Shown: positions 22,251 through 36,599 of the stretch, piece after piece
Numbering within the stretch: position 1 is the stretch's first letter
Layout of the letters: each line of letters begins with the position of its first letter
From: an uncultured Methylomirabilota bacterium
Lineage (GTDB): Bacteria; Methylomirabilota; Methylomirabilia; Methylomirabilales; 2-02-FULL-66-22
Length of the DNA: 64,000 nt
Direction of reading: 5' to 3'
Assembly (NCBI GenBank): GCA_963705305.1
Contig: OY970067.1
Location: forward strand, 672,001 to 736,000
Translations under genes and position numbers: made by a program
Notes under the pieces: generated by a model
Databases searched by the model: none
Seen by the model: only the letters and a program-made list of their open reading frames with translations
Told to the model about the DNA's origin: nothing

Positions 22251-22709
22251 TCAGTCGCGAACGCGAACCACGATCTCCACCTCCACGGGGATGTCTAAGG
22301 GGAGCTGGTTGGTGCCGATCGCCGAGCGGGCATGCTTACCTTTCTCCCCATAGAGCTTGACGAGCAGCTCCGAGGCGCCGTTCATGACCCAGGGCTGCCT
22401 AGTGAAGCCGTCCACGGAGGCCACGAACCCCAAGAGCTTGACGACCTGCTCGACTTTGTCGAGGTCGCCGATCACGTTCTTGACGCAGGCCAGGCAGTTG
22501 ATCACGCAGATCTGGGCGGCCTTGTACCCTTGCTCTTCCGTGAGCTCGCGGCCGAGCTTCCCCGTGAACATCGGCTTTCCATCCACCGTCGGTCCCTGGC
22601 CGGCCGTGAAGACCAGGTCGCCGCTTCGCACTGCCGGGACGTAGGCCGCCAACGGCTTCGGCGTGGGGAGAATAAACCCCAGCTTTTCCAACTCCCGTTC
22701 GATCTGCAT
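22251..22709 (-). CDS. RidA/YjgF family imine deaminase
   Basis: AAYVPAVRSG.LVFTAGQ, NGASELL, GKHARSAIG (catalytic Arg), LPLDIPVEVE; GGAGA RBS before ATG 22709. Confidence 0.9.
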   Translation of the reverse strand: MQIERELEKLGFILPTPKPLAAYVPAVRSGDLVFTAGQGPTVDGKPMFTGKLGRELTEEQGYKAAQICVINCLACVKNVIGDLDKVEQVVKLLGFVASVDGFTRQPWVMNGASELLVKLYGEKGKHARSAIGTNQLPLDIPVEVEIVVRVRD

Positions 22710-22742
22710 GTTGTCTCCTCCCCCCAAGGGGACGTTGTAACG

Positions 22743-23159
22743 TTAATTACCTCTTTGCCTTTCCCTCACCCGAACGTGTCCGGCGGCAATTAGCGCGTCC
22801 AACGCCCGGCCAAGCGTGGCCTGCTTGACGAGGAGATAGTCCGTGTCGTACGTGCTGACGACGAACACGCTCACTGCGGCCTCGGCCAGAGGATCGAGAA
22901 TCGACCGCAGCACGCCGATGCCGTCGAGCCGAAGTGGCCCTCGCAACCCGAGGAGGGCCCAGCCGGAGTCCGCCCGCACTTCCGGTGGTACCTCCCCAGC
23001 CCGGCAGACGACCGACAGCTCGTCCGTGGTGCGGGTGACGGAGCAGAAGTCGCCAATCTCCGCCCAGGCAGGAACAGGCGCCTGGGACGCCAGCCGGCAG
23101 ATGGCGAATTCCCCTGGAATGACAGCGAATCGAATTGGGGCAGCGGGCTGGGCGGTCAT
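22743..23159 (-). CDS. ACT-like (CASTOR/ACT_7-type) amino-acid-binding protein
   Basis: SVTRTTDELSVVC, GW..L.L.GPL, PLAEA..SVF..STYDTDYLLVK. Confidence 0.85.
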   Translation of the reverse strand: MTAQPAAPIRFAVIPGEFAICRLASQAPVPAWAEIGDFCSVTRTTDELSVVCRAGEVPPEVRADSGWALLGLRGPLRLDGIGVLRSILDPLAEAAVSVFVVSTYDTDYLLVKQATLGRALDALIAAGHVRVRERQRGN

Positions 23160-23170
23160 GGTCACACCGC

Positions 23171-23893
23171 TTACGAAAGGCTGATGGCGTGCAAACCGAG
23201 GAAGGGGGACGGGCCGACGGACGCGCCGGGCCCGATCCCCAGGAAGTCGGCCGCACCCCAGGGACCCGACACGAGCCGCCGCAGGTAGTCCAGCGATCCG
23301 GCGATCTCCCCCGACTCGAGCCCGAAGACCTCGGCGAATTCTCGGGTGTGGGCCCGCCCCAGCGCGATGTCGCCCACCCCGTGATTGATGAAGATCACCC
23401 GCTGGTAGTTCTTCAGGAGTTCCCGCGAGATGTAGCGCGCATCCTCCTCACCGTACTTGGGGAGGTACTCCGTCTTGTAGCAGGTGAGCGAGGTGGTGCC
23501 GTACTTGGCCCAACCCGGCGTGATGTAGTAGGTGCCGGCGCAGGCCCGCACCTCCGCCTCGTACCGCTCCCGCGATCCCAACAGCAGGGCAATGCAATCG
23601 TGCACCAGCGGCATGACGATGGGCGCGCGGCGGGCCGAGACGCCGACCACGCCATTGCTGCACAACCCGTAGCCCAGAATCACCAGCTGGACGTCCGGCG
23701 GCAGGCCGTCCACCACCTCCTGGACGGCGGCCGGCATCTTGCCCGGCGTGCGGTGGAGACCCTGCGGCAGGTAGGTGCGCACCAGGCCGGCTGGCGCAAC
23801 CTCCTCGAATTCGTCCCTGAAGACCTCGCAGGCGATCAGGTGACGTTTCGCGGCAGGGATGGCTGCCCAGGAGGGCCCCACATCATTACTCAT
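23171..23893 (-). CDS. DUF1638-like protein associated with corrinoid methyltransferases
   Basis: LIACEVFRDE, GLHRTP, ILGYGLCSNG, HDCIALLLGS, GTYYITPGW. Confidence 0.82.
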   Translation of the reverse strand: MSNDVGPSWAAIPAAKRHLIACEVFRDEFEEVAPAGLVRTYLPQGLHRTPGKMPAAVQEVVDGLPPDVQLVILGYGLCSNGVVGVSARRAPIVMPLVHDCIALLLGSRERYEAEVRACAGTYYITPGWAKYGTTSLTCYKTEYLPKYGEEDARYISRELLKNYQRVIFINHGVGDIALGRAHTREFAEVFGLESGEIAGSLDYLRRLVSGPWGAADFLGIGPGASVGPSPFLGLHAISLS

Positions 23894-23957
23894 GACGTTC
23901 CACAATCTGGAAATCCAGAACGAAAAGTCGGCAACCGACCGCCATCCCGGCCCGGAC

Positions 23958-25091
23958 TCAGTATGCTCCGAATTCCCGGGCCGCCTCCACCATGGCCAGG
24001 ATGTTCTCTGGCGGAACCTCGGCCTGGACGTTGTGGACCGCCCCCAGGATATAGCCCCCGCCGGGACCGAGGTCGGCGATCCGTCGCCGGACCTCCTCGC
24101 GGACCTCCGCCGGCGAGCCCTGGGGCAGGACCCGGTGCGTGTCGATTCCGCCCCAGAAGGCGATGTCCCGACCAAACTCCCGCTTCAACCGGCCGCTGTC
24201 CATATCCTTGGCAGATACTTGGACGGGGTGCACGGCATCGAAGCCCGATTCGATGAAATCCGGAATGAATGCCGCGATGGACCCGCAACTATGCAGGAGG
24301 ATGGGTTTTCCGAAGCGCTTCACCGTCTGGACAAGACGGCCGTGGGTGGGCTTCAGCAGCCGGCGGTAGAGCGCCGGGCTCATCACCGGGCCCTGCTGGG
24401 TCCCCAGGTCATCCCCGAACATCACCAGATCCACCAGATCGCCCGCCTCCTCCAGTGCGCGCTCGGTCAGGCGGACCCAGAAGTCCACATACCGCTCCAG
24501 GAACGCTTGAACGAAGTCGGGCGCGGCGATGAGATCTTCGAGGCAGGCGGCGTAGCCTCGCATGAACTGGAGCTGATGGAGTGGGCCCACGCCCAGCACC
24601 AGGATCACGGCGGCGTCCGAGACCCGCCGGTGGGCCTCGGCCTGAGCGCGCAGGCCGCGGAACCGGCCGGGGTCCAGGGGGTTCGGCCAGGCGAATCTCT
24701 CCAGCAAGGCCAGGTCAGGCTCCTGGTGGTAGAACGGCCCATCGGCGTTGATGAAGTGCTGTCCCTCGCCGACGTGCCGCCAGGTGATGCCCCATTCGTC
24801 GAACAGGCAGCCGTCGGACAGCTGCCGCTCGGGATTGACATCGGGGTCGCCTAGGATCACGGCCCGGCAGGCCGCGCCCAGGCGCTGAAGCAGCTGCTCA
24901 TCAGGGAGGACGCTGTTGGATCGGCGCGAGAGGTAGGCGACCGACGGATCTCCCTCGAATCCGAGGAAGGCCATCAGGCGCCGGTAGGCGTGGACGTTGA
25001 TGGTGCTGGCGAGCGTCCCGCCCAGATCCACGGGCACGCGGTCGGGGGGCTGGCGTCTGAGCGTCGTGAGCACCCGCTCTCGATTCGTCAT
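23958..25091 (-). CDS. Uroporphyrinogen decarboxylase-family (MtaA/CmuA-like) methyltransferase
   Basis: MTNRERV..TL..Q.PDRVPVDLGG, DEWG, GDDLGTQ, LLHSCG, WGGIDT, HNVQAEVPPEN; adjacent corrinoid protein. Confidence 0.85.
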   Translation of the reverse strand: MTNRERVLTTLRRQPPDRVPVDLGGTLASTINVHAYRRLMAFLGFEGDPSVAYLSRRSNSVLPDEQLLQRLGAACRAVILGDPDVNPERQLSDGCLFDEWGITWRHVGEGQHFINADGPFYHQEPDLALLERFAWPNPLDPGRFRGLRAQAEAHRRVSDAAVILVLGVGPLHQLQFMRGYAACLEDLIAAPDFVQAFLERYVDFWVRLTERALEEAGDLVDLVMFGDDLGTQQGPVMSPALYRRLLKPTHGRLVQTVKRFGKPILLHSCGSIAAFIPDFIESGFDAVHPVQVSAKDMDSGRLKREFGRDIAFWGGIDTHRVLPQGSPAEVREEVRRRIADLGPGGGYILGAVHNVQAEVPPENILAMVEAAREFGAY

Positions 25092-25120
25092 GGCGGACCC
25101 TTCCGAGCCGGCTGAAATGC

Positions 25121-25190
25121 GTTCGACCGTTCGGGAGTCTCGGCCAGACACCGCGAACGGTCGAACAGTCCAGCCCTTGAACGATCCAAG
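25121..25190. repeat. 8-bp-periodic inverted repeat between corrinoid and UroD-family genes
   Basis: GTTCGACCGTTCG (25121-25133) / CGAACGGTCGAAC (25154-25166) perfect IR; octads cgaacggt cgaacagt ccagccct tgaacgat. Confidence 0.6.
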
Positions 25191-25199
25191 CGCGGCGCC

Positions 25200-25835
25200 T
25201 CAGGCGATGCCCAGCAACCTCTTGGCCTTCTCCACCGCCACGCCGGCGCTTTCGCCGTAGGCGTCGGCCCCGATCTCGTCGGCAAAGCTCTGCGTGACCG
25301 GCGCCCCGCCCACCATCACCTTGATCTTGGAGCGGAGTTCGGCGCGCTCGAGAGCCTGCATCACGTCCTTCATCCCCAGCATGGTGGTGGTGAGCAGGGT
25401 GGACATGCCCAGGATCTGCGCCTTGGTATCCTTGACCGCCTGGACGAACTTGTCCGGCGGGACGTCCGTCCCGAGATCCACGACCTCGAACCCGGCCCCT
25501 TCCCACATCATGCAGACCAGATTCTTGCCAATGTCGTGCAGGTCGCCCTTGACGGTCCCCGCCACTGCCACGCCAACCGGCTTGGTTCCGCGCTGGATCA
25601 ACAGCGGCTTCAGGATCGCCAGCGACTTCTTCATGGCCCGGGCCGCGACGAGGACTTCCGGAACGTACACCTCGTTGCAGCGGAACTTCTCCCCGACCAC
25701 TTGCATGCCAGGAACCAGGGCCTCGTTGAGAATCTTCTCCGGCGGGTGGCCCGCCTGAATGGCCACCTCCGTCAGGACGGTGCACCCTTTCGCATCGCCA
25801 GCGATCACGGCCTCCTTCAACGCATTCAAGTCCAT
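25200..25835 (-). CDS. Cobalamin-binding (corrinoid) protein, MtbC/MttC-like
   Basis: Cap domain (LVPGM..VGEKF...EVYVPEVL), GDLHDIGKNLV (DxHxxG), MSTLLTTT, MVGGAPVT. Confidence 0.93.
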   Translation of the reverse strand: MDLNALKEAVIAGDAKGCTVLTEVAIQAGHPPEKILNEALVPGMQVVGEKFRCNEVYVPEVLVAARAMKKSLAILKPLLIQRGTKPVGVAVAGTVKGDLHDIGKNLVCMMWEGAGFEVVDLGTDVPPDKFVQAVKDTKAQILGMSTLLTTTMLGMKDVMQALERAELRSKIKVMVGGAPVTQSFADEIGADAYGESAGVAVEKAKRLLGIA

Positions 25836-26054
25836 GGCAGCCCCCTTCACGCGTCAGGTGAGGAACCCCGGAGCGCACATTCTCCGGATCGCCGGTCACT
25901 ATCTCCCACGACTCGACGCGAGGCCAGCCTGAATCGTCATTTGACTGCTCGACCGGACCTGTGGCGCCACCGTCCTGCGTCTCGGTCCCCCCTCGCCGAG
26001 TTGTCCGAAATTGCAGCCAAGGACCCACTTCGTAGGTGCCTTCCGATCCAAAGT

Positions 26055-26083
26055 AACGTATGGTGAAGACAATCTTCTGTCAA
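26055..26083 (-). promoter_or_regulatory. Sigma70 promoter of the corrinoid operon with spacer palindrome
   Basis: Minus strand TTGACA, 17 bp, TACGTT; GAAGA-CAA-TCTTC palindrome at 26065-26077. Confidence 0.6.
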
Positions 26084-26131
26084 GCGGGGATCGGACCTGC
26101 GCGGTTGACGCGGCAGGGGAGGAGATGATTC

Positions 26132-27364
26132 ATGTCGTTGCCCAATGTTGTTCGAGTGAGCCAAGCCTTCGATCGCACGCGGCTCGAGGATGCTCGCGGA
26201 GCCGTCATCTCCGGCCTGACCGCCCTCGGCCTGGGGGCAAAGCTCAAGCCCGGCGCCCGGATCGCCATCACGGCGGGCAGCCGCGGCATCCAGAACCTGG
26301 TGGCCATGACCCGCGCCGCCGTGGACTGGGTCAAAGACGCGGGCGGCCTGCCCTTCATCGTCCCGGCCATGGGCAGCCACGGAGGCGCGACCGACGAGGG
26401 CCAGAAAGGCCTCCTGGCGGACCTGGGCATCTCCGAGGCCGGCATGGGCTGCCCGGTCATCTCTTCCCTGCAGGTCGAGCAGATCGGGAAGACCCCCTCG
26501 GGTGCTCCGGTCTACCTGGACAGGAACGCCCTCCATGCCGACGGCATCATCGCCATCAACCGGGTCAAGCTCCACACCATCTTCCGCGGTGAGGTGGAGA
26601 GCGGCCTGTGCAAGATGCTGGCGGTGGGCCTGGGAAAACACAAGGGGGCCCAGCAGATCCACGCGATCGGCACCCAGCCCTTCATGGTGGAGACAGCCCG
26701 GGTCATCCTGGCCAAGGCGCCGGTCCTGGCCGGCGTGGCCGTGTTGGAGAACTCGCTAGATGAGACCATGGAAGTCCACGTGGTGCCCCCGGAGCGGTTC
26801 GAGGCCACCGACATCGCGCTCCTGAGGCGGGCCTGGCAGATCATCCCCCGCATCCCGTTCGATCCGCTGGACGTCCTGGTGGTGGACGAGATGGGCAAGA
26901 ATATCAGCGGGACCGGCATGGACACGAACGTCATCGGGATCGGCGGCCGTCTCGCCGGGAAGATGACGATGGGAACGCCGGCCGTCTCGGCGGTCGTCGT
27001 CTTGGATCTCACCCGCGAGACCCACGGGAACGCCAACGGCATCGGCCTCGCCGATCTCACCACCCGCCGGGTGGTGGACGCCATCGATTACAAGGCCACC
27101 TACACCAATGTCATGACGACCCGGCTGTGGTCGGCCGGGCGCCTGCCCTTGATCCTGGACACCGATCGCGAGGCCGTCGAGGTGGCCGTGGGCGAGACAC
27201 CCCTGGACCAGGTCCGCTTCGTCCGGGTCTTGAATACCCTGCACCTGGAAGAGCTGGAGATCTCGGAGGTGCTCCTGCCCGAGGCCAGGAAGCTCGGCCT
27301 TGCCGTCCTGGGCGAGGCGCACCCACTGGAGTTCGACACGAACGGGCGGATCAAGTCGTTCTGA
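26132..27364 (+). CDS. LarA-N/DUF2088-like (lactate racemase superfamily) protein
   Basis: IAITAGSRGI, PAMGSHGGAT, NRVKLHT, ESGLCKMLAVGLGK, MGKNISGTGMDTNVIG, HGNANGIG. Confidence 0.75.
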   Translation: MSLPNVVRVSQAFDRTRLEDARGAVISGLTALGLGAKLKPGARIAITAGSRGIQNLVAMTRAAVDWVKDAGGLPFIVPAMGSHGGATDEGQKGLLADLGISEAGMGCPVISSLQVEQIGKTPSGAPVYLDRNALHADGIIAINRVKLHTIFRGEVESGLCKMLAVGLGKHKGAQQIHAIGTQPFMVETARVILAKAPVLAGVAVLENSLDETMEVHVVPPERFEATDIALLRRAWQIIPRIPFDPLDVLVVDEMGKNISGTGMDTNVIGIGGRLAGKMTMGTPAVSAVVVLDLTRETHGNANGIGLADLTTRRVVDAIDYKATYTNVMTTRLWSAGRLPLILDTDREAVEVAVGETPLDQVRFVRVLNTLHLEELEISEVLLPEARKLGLAVLGEAHPLEFDTNGRIKSF

Positions 27365-27410
27365 ACGTCGAGAGTCAGCCGTGACGGCGACGGGATGGGA
27401 GAGGAACCCG

Positions 27411-27680
27411 ATGGCGATAAAACCCGTAGTGATCTCCATCAACGACAAGCTCTGCAAGGGGGCGGACGGCTGCGGCATCTGCCTGGCCCTCTGCCCCAAG
27501 GATGTCTTCAAGGTGGCCGAGCGGCTGACCAGCCGGGGCATCCGGCCGCCGCAGATCGACAAGATCACGGCCTGTACCAACTGTGGCAACTGCATGATCT
27601 ACTGCCCGGACATGGCCATCGTCGTGCGACTCGACGAGGTGCCGGAAGCGGCTGCTGCTGCGGGGCAGCAGCAGCAATGA
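27411..27680 (+). CDS. 2x[4Fe-4S] ferredoxin, delta subunit of 2-oxoacid oxidoreductase
   Basis: CKGADGCGICLALCP and CTNCGNCMIYCPD. Confidence 0.88.
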   Translation: MAIKPVVISINDKLCKGADGCGICLALCPKDVFKVAERLTSRGIRPPQIDKITACTNCGNCMIYCPDMAIVVRLDEVPEAAAAAGQQQQ

Positions 27681-27814
27681 AAAATGTCAAACCGACAATG
27701 GAAAACCGGACAACCCATCCGATAATCGATCAGCTTTTCGGCCGAGGGCGGATCGGCTGTTGGCTTTCCATTTTTAATTGTCGGTTGTCGGTTTTGCATT
27801 TTCAATCTTCCATT
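27676..27814. repeat. AT-rich heptamer-periodic imperfect palindrome
   Basis: Left aatgaaa aatgtca aaccgac aatggaa aaccgga; right ttccatt tttaatt gtcggtt gtcggtt ttgcatt ttcaatc ttccatt (reverse complements). Confidence 0.8.
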
Positions 27815-27824
27815 GGAGCGTTTC

Positions 27825-28979
27825 ATGCCTAATCGCGCAGTTCTGACCGGACGTCACTTCATGATGGGCAACATCGCCTGTGCCGAGGGGGCGGTGGCCG
27901 CCGGGTGCCGCTTCGCCGCCGGCTACCCCATCACGCCGGCCACCGAGGTGGCCGAGCGGCTGGCTGAGCGGCTCCCCGCCGTGGGCGGGACGTTCCTCCA
28001 GATGGAGGACGAGATCGGATCCATGGCGGCCATCATCGGGGCCTCCTGGGGGGGGATGAAGTCGCTCACCGCGACCTCGGGCCCCGGGATCAGCCTGATG
28101 CTGGAGAACATCGGGTTCGCCGTCGGGACGGAGACCCCCTGCGTGATCGTGAACGTCATGCGCGGAGGACCGACCACCGGGATCCCCACGGTCGAGCTCC
28201 AGGGGGATGTCATCCAGGCGCGGCGCGGCTCCCACGGCGACTACCAGATCATCGCCCTGGCGCCCTCCTCGGTGCAGGAGTGCTTCGACTACACGGTGGA
28301 GGCCTTCAACCTCGCAGAGCGGTATCGAACCCCCGTTTTCGTACTGATGGATGCCTTCCTGGGGCACATGCGGGAGGAGCTGGTCATCCCTGCGCCGGAG
28401 GCCATCCCGCTCGCGGACCGGAGGCGCTTCCCGAAGGGCATGGACGTGGAGAGCCTCCCCGCCTTCCTGGACGAGGACGTGGCCCCCATGCCCGTCTTCG
28501 GCGGGGGCCACAAGGCCCACGTGACCAGCTCCTGCCACGATGCCTACGGCCGCCGGAACGTCATCGACGCCTCGGCCCTGGATGTGTTCATCAAGAAGCT
28601 CAACGGGAAGATCGAAAATCACCAGGACGACATCGTCCGGGTGGCGTCGGACACCGAGGGGGCCGAGGTCGTCCTGGTGAGCTACGGCTCCATCTTCCGC
28701 GCCGCGCAGGCCGCCGTGGAGGCGGGCCGGGCCGGCGGCCTCAAGCTGGGCTGGATCAAGTTGGGGACGATCTGGCCCTTCCCCGACAAGGCCCTCCGGG
28801 CCGCGGCGCAGACGGCCAAGCGGCTGATCGTCTTGGAAAACAACCTCGGCCAGCTATTCCCCTACGTTCAGGCCGCGGTCGCCCCGCACTGCAGGGTCAG
28901 CTTCCTGCCGCCCCGGATCCTCGGCGAGATGCACGAGATCGGGGACATCCTGGCGGCGGTCCGCGAGGTGCACGCATGA
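27825..28979 (+). CDS. korA: 2-oxoacid:ferredoxin oxidoreductase alpha subunit
   Basis: GYPITPATE, QMEDEI, ATSGPG, RGGPTTG, IWPFP. Confidence 0.88.
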   Translation: MPNRAVLTGRHFMMGNIACAEGAVAAGCRFAAGYPITPATEVAERLAERLPAVGGTFLQMEDEIGSMAAIIGASWGGMKSLTATSGPGISLMLENIGFAVGTETPCVIVNVMRGGPTTGIPTVELQGDVIQARRGSHGDYQIIALAPSSVQECFDYTVEAFNLAERYRTPVFVLMDAFLGHMREELVIPAPEAIPLADRRRFPKGMDVESLPAFLDEDVAPMPVFGGGHKAHVTSSCHDAYGRRNVIDASALDVFIKKLNGKIENHQDDIVRVASDTEGAEVVLVSYGSIFRAAQAAVEAGRAGGLKLGWIKLGTIWPFPDKALRAAAQTAKRLIVLENNLGQLFPYVQAAVAPHCRVSFLPPRILGEMHEIGDILAAVREVHA

Positions 28980-29815
28980 GCTTGGCAACCTACGAGCATC
29001 CGCTGGCGAAGTACATCCGCCCCTCCGCCAAGACCACGGCGAACTGCCCCGGGTGCGGCAACGGGATCCTGGCGCAGGCGATCCTGCAGGCCATCGACGA
29101 GCTGGGCCTGTCCCTGGACGATTTCGTCTTCGTCTCGGGGATCGGCTGCTCGGCTTGGATCCCCAGCCCCAGCTTCTACGCCGATGTCCTGCACACCACC
29201 CACGGGCGCCCCATCGCTTTCGCCACCGGGATCAAGGCAGTCCTGCCGGACAAGCACGTCATGGTGATCAGCGGCGATGGGGACCTCACCGCCATCGGTG
29301 GGAACCACCTGATCCATGCGGCCCGGCGGAATATCGCCATGTCCGTCTTCTGCGTGAACAACGGGATCTACGGGATGACCGGCGGCCAGGTGGCCCCCAC
29401 CACGCCCATCGGCCTTCTCACCGTCACCACCCCGTATGGCAACGCCGAGAATCCCTTCGACATCTGCAAGCTGGTGGAGGGGGCGGGCGCCTCCTTCGTG
29501 GCCCGCTGGACGACCTACCATCCGCGGCAGATCGTGAAGACCGCCAAGGCGGCCATCCGGAAAAAGGGCTTCGCCTTCGTCGAGGTCATCTCGCAGTGCC
29601 CGGTCGAGTTCGGGCGCAAGACCGGGATGGGCAACACGGTCCAGATGCTGGAGCATTACAAGAAGAACTCGGTCTCAGTGGCCAAGGCCAAGACCATGAG
29701 TCCCGAGGAGCTGACGGGCAAGATCGTGGTGGGCGAGTTCGTGGACATCGAGAAACCGGAGTTGATCGAGACGCTGGCGGCGGTACGGGCCAAGGCGATG
29801 GCAGGAGGAGCGTAG
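28976..29815 (+). CDS. korB: 2-oxoacid:ferredoxin oxidoreductase beta (TPP-binding) subunit
   Basis: CPGCG, SGIGC, HGR, SGDGD, GGNHLIHA, NNGIYGMTGGQ; ATGA overlap. Confidence 0.9.
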   Translation: MSLATYEHPLAKYIRPSAKTTANCPGCGNGILAQAILQAIDELGLSLDDFVFVSGIGCSAWIPSPSFYADVLHTTHGRPIAFATGIKAVLPDKHVMVISGDGDLTAIGGNHLIHAARRNIAMSVFCVNNGIYGMTGGQVAPTTPIGLLTVTTPYGNAENPFDICKLVEGAGASFVARWTTYHPRQIVKTAKAAIRKKGFAFVEVISQCPVEFGRKTGMGNTVQMLEHYKKNSVSVAKAKTMSPEELTGKIVVGEFVDIEKPELIETLAAVRAKAMAGGA

Positions 29816-29840
29816 CGCCCGCCCCGCTGGAGGAAACGAC

Positions 29841-30413
29841 GTGAAACGCACGGAGATTCGCATCGCGGGATTCGGCGGCCAGGGTGTAGTCCTGGCCGGG
29901 GTCCTCCTGGGGACCGCCGCCGCCGTCGCCGACGGCCGGCGGGCCGTCCAGACCCAGTCCTACGGCGCGGCGGCCCGCGGCGGCGGGGCCCGCTCGGAGG
30001 TGATCATCTCCGATGACCCCGTCACCTACCCGCGCGTCACGCACCCGGACCTCATGATCGCCATGTCGGAAGAGGCCATGAAGAAGTATGGCCCGGACAT
30101 GCGGCCCGGCAGCCTGCTCGTGATCGACAGCGACCTGGTGAAAGAGGTGAAGCGGGACGACCTGCGCCTCCTGGGTATTCCGGCCTCCAACCTCGCCACC
30201 CAGGAGCTGGGCCGGACCATCGTGGCCAACCTGGTGATGCTGGGGGTGCTGGTCGCCAAAACCGGCATCGTGAGCGCCGCCGGGATGGAGGCCGCCATTC
30301 GCGAAAACGTCCCCCCCAAGACCATCGACCTGAACCTCAAGGCCTTTCGCCGGGGGCTGGAGCTCGGCGGGCAGGCCCTCATCCAGGAGCCGGTGAGCCA
30401 TGCGACTGCATGA
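29841..30413 (+). CDS. korC: 2-oxoacid:ferredoxin oxidoreductase gamma subunit
   Basis: AGFGGQGVVLAG, QTQSYG..ARGG, NLVMLG, NLKAF..G. Confidence 0.9.
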   Translation: MKRTEIRIAGFGGQGVVLAGVLLGTAAAVADGRRAVQTQSYGAAARGGGARSEVIISDDPVTYPRVTHPDLMIAMSEEAMKKYGPDMRPGSLLVIDSDLVKEVKRDDLRLLGIPASNLATQELGRTIVANLVMLGVLVAKTGIVSAAGMEAAIRENVPPKTIDLNLKAFRRGLELGGQALIQEPVSHATA

Positions 30414-31548
30414 GCACGAGGCGGCCAGCCTGTTTCGCCAAACCGGGATCCCCGTTCCCTCCTTCGCCGTGGCCCGCTCGGCCGACGAGGCGGTGGCCGC
30501 GCTGGACGCGGTGGGGCTCCCCGTCGTCATCAAGGCCCAGGTCCTGGTGGGCTCGCGGGGCAAGCACGGCGGCATCGTCGTGGCCGAGACCGCGGACCAG
30601 GTCCGTGAGAAAGCGGGCGCGATGCTCGGCAGCCGGGTGCGCGGCTTGCCGGTCGAGTCCGTGATGGTCTCGAAGAAGGTGCCCATCGCGCGCGAGCTGT
30701 ACACCGGGGTCACCGTGGACGCCGCGGCCGGCGCCATCACGGCGATCCTGGGAACCGCCGGGGGGATCGACGTGGAGACCGCGGCCAGAGAGCAGCCCGA
30801 GTCCCTGTTTCGGGCTACCGTGATTCCGCCTGCCGACCTCCGTGGCCACCAGGCGCGCGCGCTGGCCCGGCAGGCCGGGTTCCGCGGCGACCTCATGGTC
30901 AAGATCGGCGATGCCCTGGTCGGCCTCTACCGGGCCTTCCGGCGATACGATGCCCTGATCGCCGAGGTGAACCCCCTGGTGGTGACCGCCGACGACGCCC
31001 TCTGGGCCGTGGACGCCGTGCTGGAGGTGGACGACTCCGCCCTCTTCCGCCACCCCGAGATGCCCAAGGACGTCCTGACCCGGATCGAGCAGCCCCTGGA
31101 GCGGGCGGCCAAGCAGATCGGCGTTTCTTACGTGGACCTGGACGGGGACATCGCCCTGATCAGCAGCGGCGCCGGCCTCGGCATGGCCACCATGGACGTG
31201 GTGGGCCAGCGCCTCCGCCCGGCCAACTTCCTGGAGACCGGCGGGGGGATCACCGAGGAGCTGATGTACAAGGTGACTGATCTGGTCCTGCAGAAGCCCG
31301 GCGTGCGCGGCCTCCTCATCAACCTGTACGGAGGGATCAACCCCATCCACGAGGGGGCCAAGGGTATCGTCCGCGCCCTCAAGGAGAAACAGGTCAAGAT
31401 CCCGGTGGTGGCCAAGGCTCTGGGCAATCGCCAGGAGGAGACCTGGGCCACCCTCCAGGAGGCCGGGGTCATCGTCGTGACCGACATCACCACCGAGGCG
31501 GCCGTGGACGCCCTGTGCGCGGCACTGGAAGCGAGTCCGAGGTCCTAG
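30400..31548 (+). CDS. sucC: ADP-forming acyl-CoA ligase beta subunit (SucC-like)
   Basis: MRLHEHEA, IKAQV..G.RGK.GG, EVNPL, DDSALFRH, GAGLGMATMD, ANFLE.GGG. Confidence 0.82.
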   Translation: MRLHEHEAASLFRQTGIPVPSFAVARSADEAVAALDAVGLPVVIKAQVLVGSRGKHGGIVVAETADQVREKAGAMLGSRVRGLPVESVMVSKKVPIARELYTGVTVDAAAGAITAILGTAGGIDVETAAREQPESLFRATVIPPADLRGHQARALARQAGFRGDLMVKIGDALVGLYRAFRRYDALIAEVNPLVVTADDALWAVDAVLEVDDSALFRHPEMPKDVLTRIEQPLERAAKQIGVSYVDLDGDIALISSGAGLGMATMDVVGQRLRPANFLETGGGITEELMYKVTDLVLQKPGVRGLLINLYGGINPIHEGAKGIVRALKEKQVKIPVVAKALGNRQEETWATLQEAGVIVVTDITTEAAVDALCAALEASPRS

Positions 31549-31616
31549 GTCCGACGTCCGAGGTCGTCTGTGTTTGCCAGCCTCGAACCGTGAACCGCCG
31601 CACCTCGCACCGCCGA
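31535..31616. repeat. Heptamer-periodic imperfect palindrome between sucC and sucD
   Basis: gtccgag gtcctag gtccgac gtccgag ... cctcgaa ccgtgaa ccgccgca cctcgca. Confidence 0.7.
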
Positions 31617-31627
31617 CGGAGCAGGCT

Positions 31628-32512
31628 ATGAGCATTCTCCTCAACAGGAACACGCGGGTCCTGGTCCAGGGAATCACCGGTAAGATCGGCCGGGCCCAGA
31701 CCAAGTGGATGGTGGAGTACGGCACGCGGATCGTGGCGGGCGTCACGCCCGGCAGGGGCGGCGAGACGGTCGAGGGGGTCCCGGTCTTCGACAGCGTCGC
31801 CGAGGCGGTCAGGGAAACCGGCGCCGAGGCGTCCGTGTTCTTTGTTCCCGCCCGATCGGTGAAGGACACCGTCTTTGAAACCCTGGAGGCCGGCGTCAAG
31901 CTGGTGGTGGTGGTGACGGAGCATATCCCCGTCCACGATACCATGGAGATGCGGGCCGAGTCGGGGAAGGCCGGCGCCATCCTCCTCGGACCGACCACCC
32001 CGGGGATCCTCACCGTGGGCGAGGCGAAGATGGGAATCATTCCCGGGAACCTCTTTCCGAAGATCGGTGGGCGCGCCGGCGTCATCTCCCGCAGCGGCAC
32101 CCTGGCGTATGAGGTCGGCGGGATTCTGGCCAAGGCCGGCGCAGCGCCGAGTACCGTGGTGGGGATGGGGGCGGACCCCGTCGTCCTCACCGACCTGTCC
32201 GCGCTGCTCCGCCTGTACGGCGAGGACCCGGCCACCGACTTCGTCACCATCGTGGGGGAGGTGGGGGGTATCCAGGAAGAGCTGGCCGCCGAGTACATCG
32301 CCACGAAGTTTGCGAAGCCCGTTATCGCTTACATCGCTGGCCGCAACACGCCGGAGGGAAAACGCATGGGCCATGCCGGGGCCATCGTCCAGCGCGGCAT
32401 GGGGAGCGTGGCCAGCAAGGTGCGGGCGTTGGAGAAGGCCGGGGCACACATCGCCCGGACCCCCGCCGAGATCGGCGAAATCGCCAGGCAGCTCCAGGGG
32501 CACTCCACGTAG
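31628..32512 (+). CDS. sucD: ADP-forming acyl-CoA ligase alpha subunit (SucD-like)
   Basis: VLVQGITG, AGVTPG, TEHIPVHD, SRSGTL, GEVGG, MGHAGA (phospho-His). Confidence 0.88.
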   Translation: MSILLNRNTRVLVQGITGKIGRAQTKWMVEYGTRIVAGVTPGRGGETVEGVPVFDSVAEAVRETGAEASVFFVPARSVKDTVFETLEAGVKLVVVVTEHIPVHDTMEMRAESGKAGAILLGPTTPGILTVGEAKMGIIPGNLFPKIGGRAGVISRSGTLAYEVGGILAKAGAAPSTVVGMGADPVVLTDLSALLRLYGEDPATDFVTIVGEVGGIQEELAAEYIATKFAKPVIAYIAGRNTPEGKRMGHAGAIVQRGMGSVASKVRALEKAGAHIARTPAEIGEIARQLQGHST

Positions 32513-32539
32513 GCCGCACCTCTCGGAGGAGACCCGACC

Positions 32540-32851
32540 ATGTCCGTCGCGGTGCTGATGGTGAAGATGAAGATTCCGAAGGAGATCGAGGCGAAGTTCA
32601 ACGCCTTCTACGAGCAGGTTCATATCCCGGACGTCCTGGCCTTCCCGGGGGCGGTCAGCTTCCGGCGCTACCGGGCCGTCATGGGCGACGACGGCTTTCA
32701 GCTGCTTTCCGTCGTCGAGTTCAAAGACGAGGCCGCTCTGCGGCGGTTCTTCGAGTCGGACTACCGGAAGCAGATCGCCGAGAAGCTCGACGCGGAGTTT
32801 GGCGGTCTCATCGAGCGCCAGCGGCTCACCTACGAGCAGACCTGGCCCTGA
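32540..32851 (+). CDS. Small dimeric alpha/beta-barrel protein (EthD/DUF4286-like)
   Basis: FNAFY..VHIPDVL..PG....RRY; GGAGG RBS. Confidence 0.7.
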   Translation: MSVAVLMVKMKIPKEIEAKFNAFYEQVHIPDVLAFPGAVSFRRYRAVMGDDGFQLLSVVEFKDEAALRRFFESDYRKQIAEKLDAEFGGLIERQRLTYEQTWP

Positions 32852-32929: not shown

Positions 32930-33235
32930 ATGGATTCCCTCTCGACGCTCCTATGGCAGCTGCTCAAGCCGCACAGCCACATCGTCGCCGGCCTCTACCT
33001 TGCTCTCCTGATCGTGGGGACGCTGGGGCTCTTGGGGTATGCGCTCCTGGAGGTCACGTCGAGACTGACCGCCTGGTGGGAGAGGCGCTGGGGTCCGGCG
33101 TTCCTGGCCGCCCGGCCCGAGGTGGCCATTTTCGTGCTGACCCTGGCCGCGCTGTGCACCCTGGCGCTGCTCTTCATCCTCGCCTGTGACGGGCTTGTCC
33201 CGGACGAGTGGAGCGCCTTGATGGCCCAAAGCTAA
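32930..33235 (+). CDS. Hypothetical membrane protein
   Basis: Two hydrophobic segments, plausible codon usage; no family recognised. Confidence 0.55.
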   Translation: MDSLSTLLWQLLKPHSHIVAGLYLALLIVGTLGLLGYALLEVTSRLTAWWERRWGPAFLAARPEVAIFVLTLAALCTLALLFILACDGLVPDEWSALMAQS

Positions 33236-34014
33236 TGTAGCGCGTTCGACGCTCCCGTTCCGACCGTTCCCCCGCCGATGCCGAGATAAACTTTCTGGAC
33301 TTGTGGGTTGTTCTCGAGCTGGGAGGCCGGACCCTCCAACACCGTGCGCCCGGTCTGCAGCAGATACGCGTAGTCTGCAAACTCCAGTGCCAATCGCACC
33401 GATTGCTCGGCCAGAAGGAGGGTCAATCCCTCCCGATGGAGGCGCTCCAGGGTATCGTACAGCGTCTCCACAATCATGGGGGCAAGCCCGAGACTTGGCT
33501 CGTCCAGCAGCAGCAGCTTCGGCTCGCTCATCAGCGCCCGGCCCAGCGCCAGCATCTGGCGCTCCCCTCCGCTCAACGTCCCTGCCCGCTGTTTTCGGCG
33601 CTCCGCCAGGACCGGAAACAGCGTATACGCCCTGTCCAGCAGGAGCGGGATGCGCCCTCGATCGGAAAGGGCTGTGGCGCCCAGTCGGAGGTTCTGCTCC
33701 ACGGTCTGGCCGACGAAAAGACGCCACCCCTCGGGCGAGAGGGCGAGACCCTTCGAGACAATGGCATACGCGTCCAGGTGCTCGGTCCGCTCGCCGTTCC
33801 ACTCGATCGTGCCCGAGGTGGCGCGCACCAGTCCGACGATGGCGTTGAGCGTCGTGGTCTTCCCGGCCCCGTTGGAGCCGAGCAAGGCGACCACGCTGCC
33901 GGGGGGAACCTGCAGGGACACGTCGGCAACCCCCACGAGATCCCCGTAGCGCACCTGCAGATGCTGAACGCTCAGTGCCCCCGCGCGCCCGCCACCGCTT
34001 CCCATGTCACGCAC
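33232..34014 (-). CDS. HAAT ABC transporter ATP-binding protein (LivF-like)
   Basis: GSNGAGKT, LSGGERQMLA, LDEPSLGLAP. Confidence 0.9.
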   Translation of the reverse strand: MRDMGSGGGRAGALSVQHLQVRYGDLVGVADVSLQVPPGSVVALLGSNGAGKTTTLNAIVGLVRATSGTIEWNGERTEHLDAYAIVSKGLALSPEGWRLFVGQTVEQNLRLGATALSDRGRIPLLLDRAYTLFPVLAERRKQRAGTLSGGERQMLALGRALMSEPKLLLLDEPSLGLAPMIVETLYDTLERLHREGLTLLLAEQSVRLALEFADYAYLLQTGRTVLEGPASQLENNPQVQKVYLGIGGGTVGTGASNALH

Positions 34015-34780
34015 CGCGCCCGCCCGCCCCGTCCGGGGTCGCCGCTCGGCGGGATCTTCTCCCGGCCCCCAGGTACGCCTCCACGACCTTCGGGTCGTCC
34101 ACGATATCTTCCGGGCTGCCCGCGGCGATGATCTCCCCGTGGTTGAACACGATGACCCGCCGGGCCAGGGTCAGGACCACTTCCATGATGTGCTCCACGA
34201 TCACCAGCGTGACACCCTGCTGGTGGATCTGCCGGACCAGCGCGATCGCCTGCTGGATCTCGAGCGGCGTGAGGCCGGAAAGAGCCTCGTCCAGCAAGAG
34301 CAGGCGCGGCTCCATCGCCAGCGCCCGGGCGATTTCCAGCCGTTTGCGGCCCGGCGTCCCCAGGCTCTTGGCCCGATGATCCGCCTGCCCTCCGAGGCCG
34401 GTGAACTCCAGGATCCGCCTGGCCTCCTCGCGCGCCGCCGCCGGACGCGCGTGGCGCAGAAAAGACCCCACCATGACGTTGTCGAGGATGGTCATGTCCT
34501 CGAAGGTCGCCGGAACCTGGTAGGTGCGTCCGATCCCCAACCGGGCGTGCTGCTCGGGGGTGGCCCGGGTGACATCCTCCCCCTCGAAGATCACGGATCC
34601 GCCGGTGGGCGTCAGCTCTCCGCTGAGGCAGTTGAAGAAGGTGGACTTCCCGGCCCCATTGGGGCCGATGATCCCCACGATCTCCCCGCGGCTGATCTCC
34701 AGATCGGCGCCTGCGACAGCCAGGAAGCCCTGAAACGCCTTTGAGACCTTTTGCGCCTTCAGCAAGAGGGCCGAATCCAC
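34007..34780 (-). CDS. HAAT ABC transporter ATP-binding protein (LivG-like)
   Basis: GPNGAGKST, GIGRTYQ, LEIARAL, VVEAYLG. Confidence 0.9.
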   Translation of the reverse strand: MDSALLLKAQKVSKAFQGFLAVAGADLEISRGEIVGIIGPNGAGKSTFFNCLSGELTPTGGSVIFEGEDVTRATPEQHARLGIGRTYQVPATFEDMTILDNVMVGSFLRHARPAAAREEARRILEFTGLGGQADHRAKSLGTPGRKRLEIARALAMEPRLLLLDEALSGLTPLEIQQAIALVRQIHQQGVTLVIVEHIMEVVLTLARRVIVFNHGEIIAAGSPEDIVDDPKVVEAYLGAGRRSRRAATPDGAGGRGA

Positions 34781-35736
34781 TCGGCGCGCCCCTTCCGGCC
34801 CTTCCAGGCCGCGTAGCGGTCCCAGATCTCCATCAATCCGCCCGGTTCGAATCGGGACAGCAGGATGATGATCCCCCCGTATATGATGAATGTCAGCCCC
34901 GTGCCCTCCCCCCCGAACATGCTGTTGGCGAATGTCTGCAGGGGAATGAGAATCGCGGCTCCGACCAGCGGCCCGACGAGGGTGCCCGCGCCCCCCAGGG
35001 CGGCCATGATCACCATCTGCACAGACACCATGATGCCAAACACGCTGTCCGGATCGACAAACCCCAGCATGACGGCATACAAAGAGCCGGCCAGCGAGGT
35101 GAACGCCGCGCTCGCGATCATCGCATACAACTTATACTGCGGCGCGGGCACGCCAAGGCTGCGGGCGGCGCGTTCTCCGGATTTGACCGCCCGCAGGTAG
35201 TATCCCATCCGGCCTTGCTCCATCCAGCAGGTAAAGCCCAATACCGACGCCAGCACGACCAGGAAAATGTAGTAGTAGGGGATCGAGCTTCGGTAGGAGA
35301 GATCCCAGATCGTCCGTCCGATGGCCGGGCCGCCCAGCCCTCTGGCCGCCCCGACGAATTCCCAGTTGGTGACCAGGAGGCGGATCAGCTCGGCGACGGC
35401 GATCGTGGCCATGGAAAAGTAATGGCCGCGCAATCGAAAGGTGGGGATGCCGACGAGGACGGCGATGCCGACGCTCACGGCAATGCCCACCGGGATGCCC
35501 AGCACGGGTGCGCCCTGCCAGTGCGTGTAGACGAGCAGGGGAAGGTACGCTCCCACCCCAAAAAAGATGGCGTGCCCGAAGGAGACCTGGCCTGCATACC
35601 CGCCGACGATGTTCCATGCCGACGCGAGGACCGCCCACAGCAGCGCCAGGGCGATCATGCGCTCGTAAAACGGATCCTGAAACGTCCAGGGAACAACGAG
35701 AAGCAGGCTTCCGAGGACGACCCATGCCCACCGCAT
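34759..35736 (-). CDS. HAAT ABC transporter permease (LivM-like)
   Basis: GYAGQVSFGHA, LRGHYFSMAT, LGGAGTLVGP. Confidence 0.9.
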   Translation of the reverse strand: MRWAWVVLGSLLLVVPWTFQDPFYERMIALALLWAVLASAWNIVGGYAGQVSFGHAIFFGVGAYLPLLVYTHWQGAPVLGIPVGIAVSVGIAVLVGIPTFRLRGHYFSMATIAVAELIRLLVTNWEFVGAARGLGGPAIGRTIWDLSYRSSIPYYYIFLVVLASVLGFTCWMEQGRMGYYLRAVKSGERAARSLGVPAPQYKLYAMIASAAFTSLAGSLYAVMLGFVDPDSVFGIMVSVQMVIMAALGGAGTLVGPLVGAAILIPLQTFANSMFGGEGTGLTFIIYGGIIILLSRFEPGGLMEIWDRYAAWKGRKGRAEWIRPSC

Positions 35737-36593: not shown

Positions 36594-36599
36594 CGGAGA

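What the first reader, a model, noticed from the sequence alone, without database searches (positions are those of the whole stretch)
22251..32851. Divergent corrinoid-methyltransferase and LarA-Kor-SucCD operons: candidate undescribed anaerobic catabolic system
Seen: one ~300 bp divergent region separates (left) corrinoid protein, UroD/MtaA-family protein, DUF1638-like, ACT-like and Rid from (right) LarA-like, four-subunit 2-oxoacid:ferredoxin oxidoreductase, SucCD-like ligase and EthD-like protein. Known: corrinoid + MtaA-type pairs transfer methyl groups; Rid proteins hydrolyse imines to 2-oxoacids; OFOR plus an ADP-forming ligase yields reduced ferredoxin and ATP. Inference: together they could demethylate an N/O/S-methylated amino or hydroxy acid, convert it to a 2-oxoacid and conserve energy by substrate-level phosphorylation. 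I know of no characterised pathway with this combination.
Basis: partly seen in the sequence, partly recalled or inferred. Interest (0 to 1): 0.72.

Follow-up and report, generated by a model that had tools for sequence, protein, structure and literature searches.

The report
Retooled oxoacid-oxidation operon beside methyl-transfer module
All thirteen genes are real, but they form two separately inherited modules: a vitamin-B12 methyl-transfer unit that likely feeds methionine synthesis, and an operon whose altered active sites suggest it oxidises an unidentified hydroxy acid (probably not the usual 2-oxoglutarate/succinate) to make ATP, and whose core enzymes recur in other phyla almost always without the B12 genes.

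Summary
The gene inventory is right; the single demethylate-then-oxidise pathway is not supported. Host: a Methylomirabilota genus. The right arm (group-22 NPN isomerase, korDABG, sucCD-like) occurs in 12 of 20 same-genus genomes. The corrinoid arm occurs in 16 of 20 and adjoins it in only 6 of those 12; these six plus this genome form about one clade, and two lack the UroD gene. Elsewhere a D-2-hydroxyacid dehydrogenase heads the operon. The right arm is the real finding: KorB has Trp where 2-oxoglutarate enzymes have Arg/Lys, and the ligase has changed acid-site loops. Outside the phylum, each enzyme separately sits beside the same variant 4-hydroxybutyryl-CoA-dehydratase-like gene (15 of 19 and 16 of 21 loci; corrinoid genes in 1 of 40). 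Best reading: racemise and oxidise a 2-hydroxy acid, decarboxylate its 2-oxo acid (a 2-oxoglutarate look-alike lacking the distal carboxylate), release the acid with ATP. The substrate is unidentified; 5-hydroxy-2-oxovalerate is my lead guess. The left arm resembles split-methionine-synthase methyl scavenging. New variant of a known kind; not found in print in ten searches.

The parts
22251..22709 (-). Rid-family protein; part of the left arm's chromosomal block, not of the right-arm operon
   Evidence: PF14588/PF01042; follows DUF1638 or precedes the M23 gene in 9 of 16 genomes with the corrinoid orthologue, linked or not to the right arm
22743..23159 (-). ACT-domain protein; likely a recent local insertion
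   Evidence: PF21631+PF13840; absent from 12 right-arm and 13 left-arm relative loci; GC3 0.75 vs 0.84-0.93 for neighbours
23171..23893 (-). DUF1638 protein, likely corrinoid-reactivation accessory; single copy in the genome
   Evidence: PF07796 144 bits; one match in genome; role inferred from PMC5764234
23958..25091 (-). UroD/MtaA-fold protein, likely substrate:corrinoid methyltransferase; metal site His267-Cys269-His353, not His-Cys-Cys
   Evidence: PF01208; model pLDDT 91.5, best fold match MtaA 4ay7 TM 0.70; ligand alignment
25200..25835 (-). Stand-alone corrinoid (B12-binding) protein
   Evidence: PF02607+PF02310; TIGR02370 210 bits vs cut-off 215; DLHDIG and S-x-L motifs
25836..26131 (.). 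296-bp divergent intergenic region; no sigma-70 consensus site found in it
   Evidence: sequence; promoter scan; only the halves next to each gene match relatives
26132..27364 (+). LarA-superfamily NPN-dependent isomerase, group 22 (no characterised member found); predicted 2-hydroxy-acid racemase/epimerase
   Evidence: NF052515 494 bits; R51, H83, H148, K161, H177 invariant in 33 homologues, matching R75/H108/H174/K184/H200 of group 22; model matches LarA structures; larB, larC, larE in genome
27411..27680 (+). OFOR delta subunit (ferredoxin-like)
27825..28979 (+). OFOR alpha subunit, Kor type (YPITP)
   Evidence: NF006412 over cut-off; motifs
28976..29815 (+). OFOR beta subunit with Trp61 in place of the Arg/Lys of 2-oxoglutarate-using enzymes
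   Evidence: alignments to 8ys5, 6n2n, 5b46/5b48; invariant in genus and in 19 loci of another phylum; K49I effect in PMC5020499
29841..30413 (+). OFOR gamma subunit
   Evidence: PF01558
30400..31548 (+). SucC-like acyl-CoA ligase beta subunit of a divergent clade (SSGAGLG, ETGGGI, YGGINPI)
   Evidence: 39% to the genome's canonical SucC
31628..32512 (+). SucD-like alpha subunit; phospho-His motif GHAG kept, GPNCP changed to GPTTP
32540..32851 (+). DUF4286/ABM-like small protein; accessory, in 2 of 12 relative loci
33232..37850 (-). Liv-type ABC transporter (livKHMGF), convergent with the operon; likely partner uptake system
   Evidence: follows the same SDR in G006, G013, G020
37896..38087 (-). 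4-oxalocrotonate-tautomerase-family protein
   Evidence: PF01361; near the right arm in 3 of 12 relative loci
38110..38862 (-). SDR whose orthologue co-occurs with the Trp-type OFOR across phyla
   Evidence: 64-78% in 6 of 19 Trp-KorB genomes vs 0 of 20 controls; 7 of 20 in genus
38991..39791 (-). IclR regulator; divergent from the right-arm operon in four relatives and near it in a fifth
   Evidence: 5 of 12 loci

Best explanation
Two independent modules lie back to back: the right arm is a conserved operon that likely racemises a 2-hydroxy acid, has it oxidised to the 2-oxo acid by a dehydrogenase encoded in the operon in some relatives and probably elsewhere here, and would then decarboxylate it to an acyl-CoA and release the free acid with ATP, while the left arm likely strips a methyl group from an unknown donor onto a B12 protein for methionine synthesis. 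Shown: gene identities, order, conservation, active-site substitutions, neighbour counts. Inferred: every reaction. The oxo acid is most likely a 2-oxoglutarate look-alike whose distal carboxylate is replaced by an uncharged or cationic group, because the three enzymes that share the acyl-CoA (Kor-type OFOR, SucCD-type ligase, AbfD-type protein in other phyla) all derive from C4-acyl-CoA enzymes and all have altered substrate-end residues. My lead is 5-hydroxy-2-oxovalerate to 4-hydroxybutyryl-CoA to 4-hydroxybutyrate (about 0.25); 5-amino-, 4-methylthio- and 3-butenoyl variants remain open. Lineages with the AbfD variant would process the CoA ester further; this genus lacks it and would cash it for ATP.
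For: Right arm intact and in the same order in 11 of 12 relatives, the 12th cut by a contig end. GntR plus D-2-hydroxyacid dehydrogenase head the operon in 4 of 12; that orthologue was found only in Trp-KorB genomes: 4 of 20 genus, 5 of 19, 0 of 20 controls. KorB Trp61 vs Arg63/Lys49; K49I abolished 2-oxoglutarate activity in StOFOR1 (PMC5020499); the genome keeps a normal Arg-type Kor and a canonical SucCD beside icd/mdh-like genes. AbfD-like gene in 15 of 19 Trp-KorB loci and 16 of 21 ligase-clade loci. OFOR + this ligase clade + LarA-family and/or D-2-hydroxyacid dehydrogenase recur in Bathyarchaeota, Latescibacterota and Bacillota records. Left arm: in 16 of 20 genomes, 4 of them without the right arm; adjacency confined to about one clade; in G025/G029 the orthologous unit is co-directional with a RACo activase and a homocysteine S-methyltransferase domain; the genome has RACo and such a domain but no ACS or MttB match.
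Against: No activity data; the substrate is a guess. This genome and 8 of 12 relatives lack the operon's dehydrogenase, leaving a gap between isomerase and OFOR. The Arg/Lys rule is not absolute: K49R preferred pyruvate and H. thermophilus KorAB lacks the residue yet is 2-oxoglutarate-specific. The AbfD-like partner lacks E257, Y296 and E455, so it is not a canonical 4-hydroxybutyryl-CoA dehydratase. Ligase-clade genes are in only 5 of 19 Trp-KorB genomes and none of those loci. Adjacency has persisted in 7 of 13 genomes; clade support is moderate (UFBoot 69, SH 0.75; 6 of 7 at 0.955 on the right-arm tree). One Trp-KorB locus (L133) ends in a corrinoid + UroD pair, and UroD-subfamily homologues occur in 14 of 19 Trp-KorB genomes vs 0 of 20 unmatched controls.
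Confidence: 0.62

Rival explanations
1. One reading: both arms are one pathway for a methylated acid, for example the methionine hydroxy/oxo analogue oxidised to 3-methylthiopropionyl-CoA, released with ATP, then demethylated by the corrinoid pair.
For: Divergent adjacency in 7 of 13 genomes; Trp61 suits an uncharged thioether or ether side chain (inference); L133 has a corrinoid + UroD pair at the end of an OFOR-AbfD run; UroD-subfamily homologues in 14 of 19 Trp-KorB genomes vs 0 of 20 controls.
Against: Unlinked in 6 of 12; about one clade; UroD missing in G002 (94% complete) and G004 (100%) with the right arm intact; corrinoid genes in 1 of 40 outside loci, DUF1638 in 0 of 40; L133's UroD is 25% identical and lacks the Zn cysteines; 0 of 14 UroD-homologue loci examined (of 36 matches) had corrinoid, DUF1638, RACo or OFOR genes nearby; His-Cys-His is not the S-methyltransferase set.
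Confidence: 0.15
2. The right arm is an ordinary second 2-hydroxyglutarate / 2-oxoglutarate / succinate module.
For: Kor-type alpha subunit over cut-off, nearest structures are 2-oxoglutarate OFORs and succinyl-CoA synthetases; the beta-subunit Arg/Lys is not strictly required.
Against: Invariant Trp in 31 loci of three groups plus a Latescibacterota locus; ligase loops differ from all canonical SucC shown; canonical Kor and SucCD exist elsewhere in the genome; the known 2-hydroxyglutarate racemases are group 7a, not 22; neighbours are AbfD-like, not TCA genes.
Confidence: 0.1
3. The right arm oxidises sulfolactate via sulfopyruvate to sulfoacetate with ATP (SauCD/SqwKL-like ligase).
For: SucCD homologues act on sulfoacetate (PMC10413351); the Ldh_2 partner's best NCBIfam model is L-sulfolactate dehydrogenase, below cut-off; D- and L-specific dehydrogenases plus a racemase fit a racemic substrate.
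Against: Trp61 does not suit an anionic side chain (inference); the one ligase found in a sulfo-transketolase-like cluster (L103) has different loops and lies outside the clade; no desulfonation gene was recognised in the loci annotated.
Confidence: 0.07
4. The left arm is the input part of the corrinoid-UroD-DUF1638 sensory cassette proposed in earlier scan notes, not a metabolic methyltransferase.
For: Same three families in the same order as in those notes; a sensor kinase lies 6 kb away at 14381-16972 and stays near in G014, G015, G020.
Against: No kinase or cyclase follows DUF1638 in any of 18 orthologous loci; the only DUF1638 in the genome is stand-alone; the UroD keeps His-x-Cys; G025/G029 place the unit with RACo and a homocysteine methyltransferase.
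Confidence: 0.06

Closest known systems
Oxidative branch of amino-acid fermentation: four-subunit OFOR + acyl-CoA cleavage with ATP (HpdDEFG-HpdJK of Clostridium scatologenes, PMC13285125; archaeal OFOR + ADP-forming ligase, recalled)
   Same: Delta-alpha-beta-gamma OFOR followed by enzymes that turn the acyl-CoA into acid plus ATP; yields reduced ferredoxin.
   Different: Kor-type rather than Vor-type OFOR; SucCD-type ligase rather than phosphotransacylase/kinase or Acd; entry through an NPN isomerase and hydroxy-acid dehydrogenase rather than an aminotransferase; substrate unknown.
KorABCD + succinyl-CoA synthetase SucCD
   Same: Subunit set, YPITP, GDG, phospho-His motif, nearest structures (8ys5, 6n2n, 3ufx).
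   Different: Beta Arg/Lys replaced by Trp; ligase N256S, DV to ET, FGGIVRC to YGGINPI, alpha GPNCP to GPTTP; 39-48% to the genome's own canonical copies.
SauCD / SqwKL ADP-forming sulfoacetate-CoA ligase (PMC10413351)
   Same: SucCD homologue retooled for a non-succinate acid.
   Different: Not compared directly (sequence not retrievable); the SqwKL-like ligase in L103 is 36% identical with different loop motifs; no SauS partner.
LarA superfamily group 22 (PMC7583248)
   Same: Passes NF052515; all five catalytic and cofactor residues kept.
   Different: Group listed as unknown function with SDR, dehydratase and TRAP neighbours; an OFOR/ligase context is not among the associations I saw; position F176 is Ile here (Ala, Asp or Ser in the 20 listed).
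Split methionine synthase of Phaeobacter/Ruegeria: MtgC + MtgE + RamA + DUF1638 (PMC5764234, PMC12478193)
   Same: Stand-alone corrinoid protein, DUF1638, RACo activase and stand-alone homocysteine methyltransferase domain in the same genome, one run in G025/G029.
   Different: Donor-side enzyme is UroD-family, not MttB; no stand-alone pterin-binding subunit identified; a MetH is also present; donor unknown.
Type 1 mlp gene clusters (PMC10418091)
   Same: Corrinoid protein plus UroD-family protein without a folate methylase in a non-methanogen.
   Different: One UroD protein instead of two or more, no activase in the cluster, His-Cys-His instead of His-Cys-Cys, 18% structural identity to MtaA.
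4-Hydroxybutyryl-CoA dehydratase AbfD (1U8V), partner in other phyla only
   Same: E 4e-137; C99, C103, H292, C299, R90, T190 kept.
   Different: E257C, Y296H, E455S in the full-length loci; no close orthologue in this genome or genus.

Membership tests
LarA superfamily, group 22 | Score above NF052515 cut-off | tested here: met
   494 vs 400 bits
LarA superfamily, group 22 | R75, H108, H174, K184, H200 equivalents and LarA fold | tested here: met
   R51, H83, H148, K161, H177 invariant; top 15 listed fold matches are LarA proteins, TM 0.46-0.57
LarA superfamily, group 22 | NPN biosynthesis genes larB, larC, larE in genome | tested here: met
   all over cut-off
LarA superfamily, group 22 | 2-hydroxy-acid racemase/epimerase activity | not testable with these tools
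   no characterised group-22 member found
2-Oxoglutarate:ferredoxin oxidoreductase (Kor) | Four Kor-type subunits, YPITP and TPP motifs | tested here: met
2-Oxoglutarate:ferredoxin oxidoreductase (Kor) | Basic residue after GIGCS-x in the beta subunit (Arg63/Lys49) | tested here: not met
   Trp61; residue important but not universal
Succinate-CoA ligase SucCD | Alpha/beta architecture, ATP-grasp, phospho-His motif | tested here: met
Succinate-CoA ligase SucCD | NCBIfam cut-offs | tested here: inconclusive
   beta below both models; alpha just over NF004230, below TIGR01019
Succinate-CoA ligase SucCD | Canonical acid-site motifs NGAGL and FGGI(V/L)RC (their role in succinate binding is recalled; the structure paper was not held) | tested here: not met
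   SGAGL and YGGINPI
SauCD/SqwKL sulfoacetate-CoA ligase | Same clade and SauS neighbour | tested here: inconclusive
   only a proxy (L103) was available; different motifs, outside clade
MtaA/MtbA/MtsA-type S-methyltransferase and type 1 Mlp | His-Cys-Cys zinc site | tested here: not met
   H267, C269, H353 opposite MtaA Cys316; criterion from PMC10418091
Type 1 mlp gene cluster | At least two Mlps, corrinoid protein and Ram/RACE gene co-directional within 2 kb | tested here: not met
   one UroD gene; RACo 1.1 Mb away
UroD superfamily | PF01208 and TIM-barrel fold | tested here: met
Split methionine synthase module | Stand-alone corrinoid protein, DUF1638, RACo and homocysteine methyltransferase domain in genome | tested here: met
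   the methyltransferase gene is frameshifted in this assembly
Split methionine synthase module | Stand-alone pterin-binding subunit | tested here: inconclusive
   only MetH and one other PF00809 gene, presumably dihydropteroate synthase, not checked
Split methionine synthase module | Methyl transfer from this corrinoid protein to homocysteine | not testable with these tools
   in 11 or more relatives the methyltransferase domain sits beside the other corrinoid paralogue
Canonical AbfD (partner gene in other phyla) | T190, E257, Y296, E455 | tested here: not met
   three of four changed
EthD family | TIGR02118 cut-off | tested here: not met
   23.2 vs 30.5 bits

The most novel reading that the evidence does not exclude
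One undescribed energy pathway for a methylated 2-hydroxy acid: NPN racemisation, oxidation, Trp-type OFOR decarboxylation and ATP-yielding release by the divergent ligase, with the adjoining B12 module recruited in this clade to recycle the methyl group into methionine, and with a variant AbfD doing new elimination chemistry on the same acyl-CoA in other phyla.
Probability: 0.13. Interest if true: 0.78.

Novelty: new variant of a known kind. Interest (0 to 1): 0.5.

Why it matters
If right, three uncharacterised subfamilies (Trp-type Kor, the ETGGGI/YGGINPI ligase clade, the AbfD variant) handle one shared acyl-CoA in Methylomirabilota, Desulfobacterota, Bacillota, Latescibacterota and Bathyarchaeota records, and are now auto-annotated as TCA-cycle or 4-hydroxybutyrate-cycle enzymes, which would mislead metabolic reconstructions of uncultured lineages. 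The oxygen-tolerant ligase makes the substrate cheap to screen, and the answer would also give the first function for group-22 NPN isomerases. The left arm suggests one corrinoid hub serving about a dozen UroD-family paralogues.

Tried and rejected
RNA runs: none was listed, so co-expression is untested. Promoter/terminator scan: nothing in the divergent gap; 5 sites vs 2.0 expected over 18 kb, uninformative. Rfam: no match. PDB sequence search with the LarA-like protein: no relative; the fold search supplied the link. Literature: ten searches found no paper on this operon, on Trp-type KorB, on 5-hydroxy-2-oxovalerate with 4-hydroxybutyryl-CoA, or on anaerobic furoate genes; the library lacks most subscription papers, and supplements were read only for PMC7583248. 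Four papers were not held, so succinate-site residues and MmOGOR Arg63's role are recalled. I first read the AbfD-like gene as a canonical dehydratase and dropped that. Rid as the imine-to-oxo-acid step: rejected, it tracks the left block and is in 1 of 40 outside loci. Furoate as upstream substrate (co-occurring NCR/BaiCD-like flavoenzyme; furfural fermentation recalled): kept only as a guess. The right-arm IQ-TREE run timed out; FastTree was used. No monophyly test and no independent species tree were run. The 20 control genomes were the first listed non-matches, smaller and not matched by lineage; one (G251) was the search centre. Earlier-findings look-ups by place and by LarA words were empty. 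Two 59% KorB hits (L129, L130) were not examined.


Full report
Observation. The arms diverge across 296 bp. Close homologues are labelled candidate division NC10 / Candidatus Methylomirabilis, so the host is a Methylomirabilota; the genome is one 5.65-Mb contig, 98.9% complete. The last gene is DUF4286/ABM-like rather than EthD.

Do the arms belong together? A 75-81% orthologue of the LarA-like protein was found in 12 of 20 same-genus genomes (one in frameshifted pieces) and in none of 20 other genomes of the order. In 11 of the 12 it is followed by korD, A, B, G, sucC, sucD in the same order; the twelfth contig ends in korA. The corrinoid arm lies divergently next to it in G002, G005, G010, G018, in G004 behind a 3.5-kb insert, and in G014 across two overlapping contig ends: 6 of 12. 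In G016, G017, G019, G020 the operon is headed by GntR and a D-2-hydroxyacid dehydrogenase with an IclR divergent; in G006, G007 by a NagA-like/SIS/TRAP unit. All six carry the corrinoid orthologue elsewhere, in G020 inside a different large contig. The corrinoid orthologue (82-87%) is in 16 of 20 genomes, four of which (76-96% complete) lack the right arm. The UroD orthologue is in 14 of 20 and was not found in G002 or G004, which keep the adjacency and the right arm. On the left-arm tree the seven adjacent genomes form one clade (UFBoot 69; SH 0.75); on the right-arm tree six of seven do (0.955), G002 being placed elsewhere with weak support. So the adjacency is one or two inherited events, not repeated selection. 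ACT was in none of the 25 relative loci; Rid stays with the left block in 9 of 16 genomes.

The right arm. The LarA-like protein passes the group-22 model, keeps all five catalytic and cofactor residues, folds like LarA, and larB, larC, larE are in the genome. Group 22 is listed as unknown function (PMC7583248, passages and supplement rows); I saw no group-22 assay in PMC11770544 (passages) or PMC12611868 (abstract and part of the results). KorB has Trp61 where H. pylori OorB and M. marinus OGOR have Arg and S. tokodaii OFOR has Lys49. K49I lost 2-oxoglutarate activity, but K49R preferred pyruvate and H. thermophilus KorAB lacks the residue (PMC5020499, passages), so this is a strong hint, not proof. 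The genome's other two KorB of this type keep Arg. SucC/SucD are 39% and 45% identical to the canonical pair elsewhere in the genome and define a clade with changed loops.

The same enzymes elsewhere. Within the phylum the Trp-type KorB was found in 12 of 251 genomes, all in this genus. A scan of GTDB genomes with the SucC alignment gave 29 loci; 7 are Methylomirabilota-type, one (L082, 77%) has only the ligase, and 21 are distant. Of the 21, 16 lie beside an AbfD-like gene, 3 beside an OFOR, 2 beside a LarA-family gene, none beside corrinoid, UroD, DUF1638 or Rid genes. A Latescibacterota record has Trp-korB, korG, sucC, sucD, group-22 isomerase in a row; a Bathyarchaeota record has Trp-type korDABG, a D-2-hydroxyacid dehydrogenase and the ligase; a Bacillota record has an Arg-type Kor, the ligase, a LarA and the dehydrogenase. 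In a sample of 401 genomes from the phylum of a Desulfatiglandales record, 19 have KorB at 65-70%, all with Trp. Their loci (several cut by contig ends) hold AbfD-like 15, GntR 12, OYE-type flavoenzyme 8, ABC binding protein 7, Ldh_2 6, D-2-hydroxyacid dehydrogenase 3, LarA-family 2, corrinoid + UroD 1, DUF1638 0, SucC 0 of 19. The AbfD-like genes of the two sets are 70-81% alike and share one signature: FeS ligands kept, E257C, Y296H, E455S (residues from bioRxiv 10.1101/2020.02.05.935528, passages). An earlier scan note (e1-4858490) prompted this check. No close AbfD orthologue was found in this genome or genus (36-38% hits in 8 of 20). The window's own SDR (38110-38862) has 64-78% orthologues in 6 of 19 Trp-KorB genomes and 0 of 20 controls, usually in an OYE-transporter-SDR run; the dehydrogenase orthologue is in 5 of 19 vs 0 of 20, and absent here. 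Controls were unmatched and kin are not independent.

Mechanism (inferred). OFOR, ligase and AbfD variant pair up in three combinations, which is simplest if they share one acyl-CoA. All three descend from C4-acyl-CoA enzymes and are altered at the substrate's far end. I therefore propose: 2-hydroxy acid, racemised by the NPN enzyme, oxidised to a 2-oxoglutarate look-alike without the distal carboxylate, decarboxylated to acyl-CoA with reduced ferredoxin, then either cleaved to acid plus ATP (this genus) or processed by the AbfD variant (others). Lead guess 5-hydroxy-2-oxovalerate/4-hydroxybutyryl-CoA; proline-related neighbours in the Bathyarchaeota and G004 loci keep a 5-amino variant open, and the methionine analogue is isosteric too. 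The architecture is that of the oxidative fermentation branch (PMC13285125, abstract and section 2.7); retooled SucCD has precedent in SauCD (PMC10413351, passages), but the one SqwKL-like ligase found is outside the clade.

The left arm. The UroD protein folds most like MtaA (TM 0.70) but has His-Cys-His, not the His-Cys-Cys of S/Se-methyltransferases, and the cluster fails the type 1 mlp definition (PMC10418091, parts 1-3 of 6 read). [quoted passage not shown] In G025/G029 the orthologous unit (56-63%) is co-directional with RACo, a second UroD and a homocysteine S-methyltransferase domain. This genome has one DUF1638, one RACo, a stand-alone homocysteine methyltransferase domain and a MetH (both frameshifted in the assembly), no ACS and no MttB match. 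It has 12 UroD-like loci; none of the 10 others examined adjoins a corrinoid gene. The simplest reading is methyl scavenging into methionine. Against it, the methyltransferase domain more often sits by the other corrinoid paralogue. The sensory-cassette idea from earlier notes does not fit: no signalling gene follows DUF1638 here or in relatives.

Results favouring a link. Adjacency persists in 7 of 13 genomes; L133 ends an OFOR-AbfD run with a corrinoid + UroD pair, though that UroD is 25% identical and lacks Zn cysteines; UroD-subfamily homologues are in 14 of 19 Trp-KorB genomes vs 0 of 20 controls, but none of 14 loci examined, of 36 matches, had corrinoid or OFOR genes, which points to shared lifestyle. 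No RNA run was listed.

Verdict. Observation confirmed; interpretation partly supported. The combination of both arms is most likely a lineage-specific juxtaposition. The right arm with its cross-phylum partners is a new variant of a known kind, not found in print in ten searches of a library that lacks most subscription papers; PMC13524815 (abstract) and PMC10176493 (passages) added nothing. Interest 0.5.

Noticed in passing
G000:C1:5,260,342-5,269,300 (L040:6205-17235): Two other group-22 isomerases sit with a D-2-hydroxyacid dehydrogenase, an HpcH-type aldolase, lipoate ligase and E1/E2 2-oxoacid dehydrogenase genes: a parallel isomerase + dehydrogenase + oxoacid decarboxylation layout; paired group-22 copies recur in many relatives.
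   Followed up: partly
L132, L137/L153, L138/L152, L143, L148, L156, L158; G000:C1:3,831,500-3,833,450: An NCR/BaiCD-like flavin-FeS reductase + transporter + SDR cassette accompanies the Trp-type OFOR; its ABC binding protein is 87% identical between G016 and G557 of different phyla.
   Followed up: partly
window 26132-27364 and L046-L056: Group-22 motif subtype tracks the dehydrogenase: HTAF in the four genomes with it, HTIF in the eight checked without it; confounded by kinship.
   Followed up: partly
L048:12217-15289 (G004): A three-gene 2Fe-2S / flavin / DAO oxidase unit, like amino-acid (proline-type, recalled) dehydrogenases, is inserted between the two arms.
   Followed up: partly
L133:296-9985 (G630): korDABG, AbfD variant, Ldh_2, Fe-ADH, DHDPS-family, UroD (no Zn cysteines) and corrinoid protein on one strand, SDR orthologue convergent.
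   Followed up: partly
L094-L099: SucCD clade divergent from GntR, AbfD variant and a GlpA/LhgO-like three-gene oxidoreductase in Desulfobacterota-type records.
   Followed up: partly
L103:4850-13480: Spirochaete cluster with transketolase-like subunits, RpiB-like, SauS-like dehydrogenase, SucCD and DASS symporter, resembling a sulfo-transketolase variant (label recalled).
   Followed up: no
G000:C1 near 4,443,285; 1,997,910; 3,596,800; 4,049,100: Frameshifts or splits in metH, the homocysteine methyltransferase domain and two UroD-like genes; may be assembly errors or insertions.
   Followed up: no
L082:4187-6243 (G255): Ligase pair 77-83% identical to the window's in a record labelled Syntrophobacterales, nested among the genus's copies, without OFOR or isomerase nearby: possible transfer or mis-binning.
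   Followed up: no
L165, L167-L171, L174: A UroD-like subgroup ending in TSCHSIQ recurs beside amidase-like and DUF362-like genes with no corrinoid gene (labels from N-termini only).
   Followed up: no
window 40114-41118: Fragment of a DNA-methyltransferase-like gene and a PIN/antitoxin-like pair just beyond the IclR; similar methyltransferase-like genes flank sucD in G004 and G010 (labels by eye).
   Followed up: no
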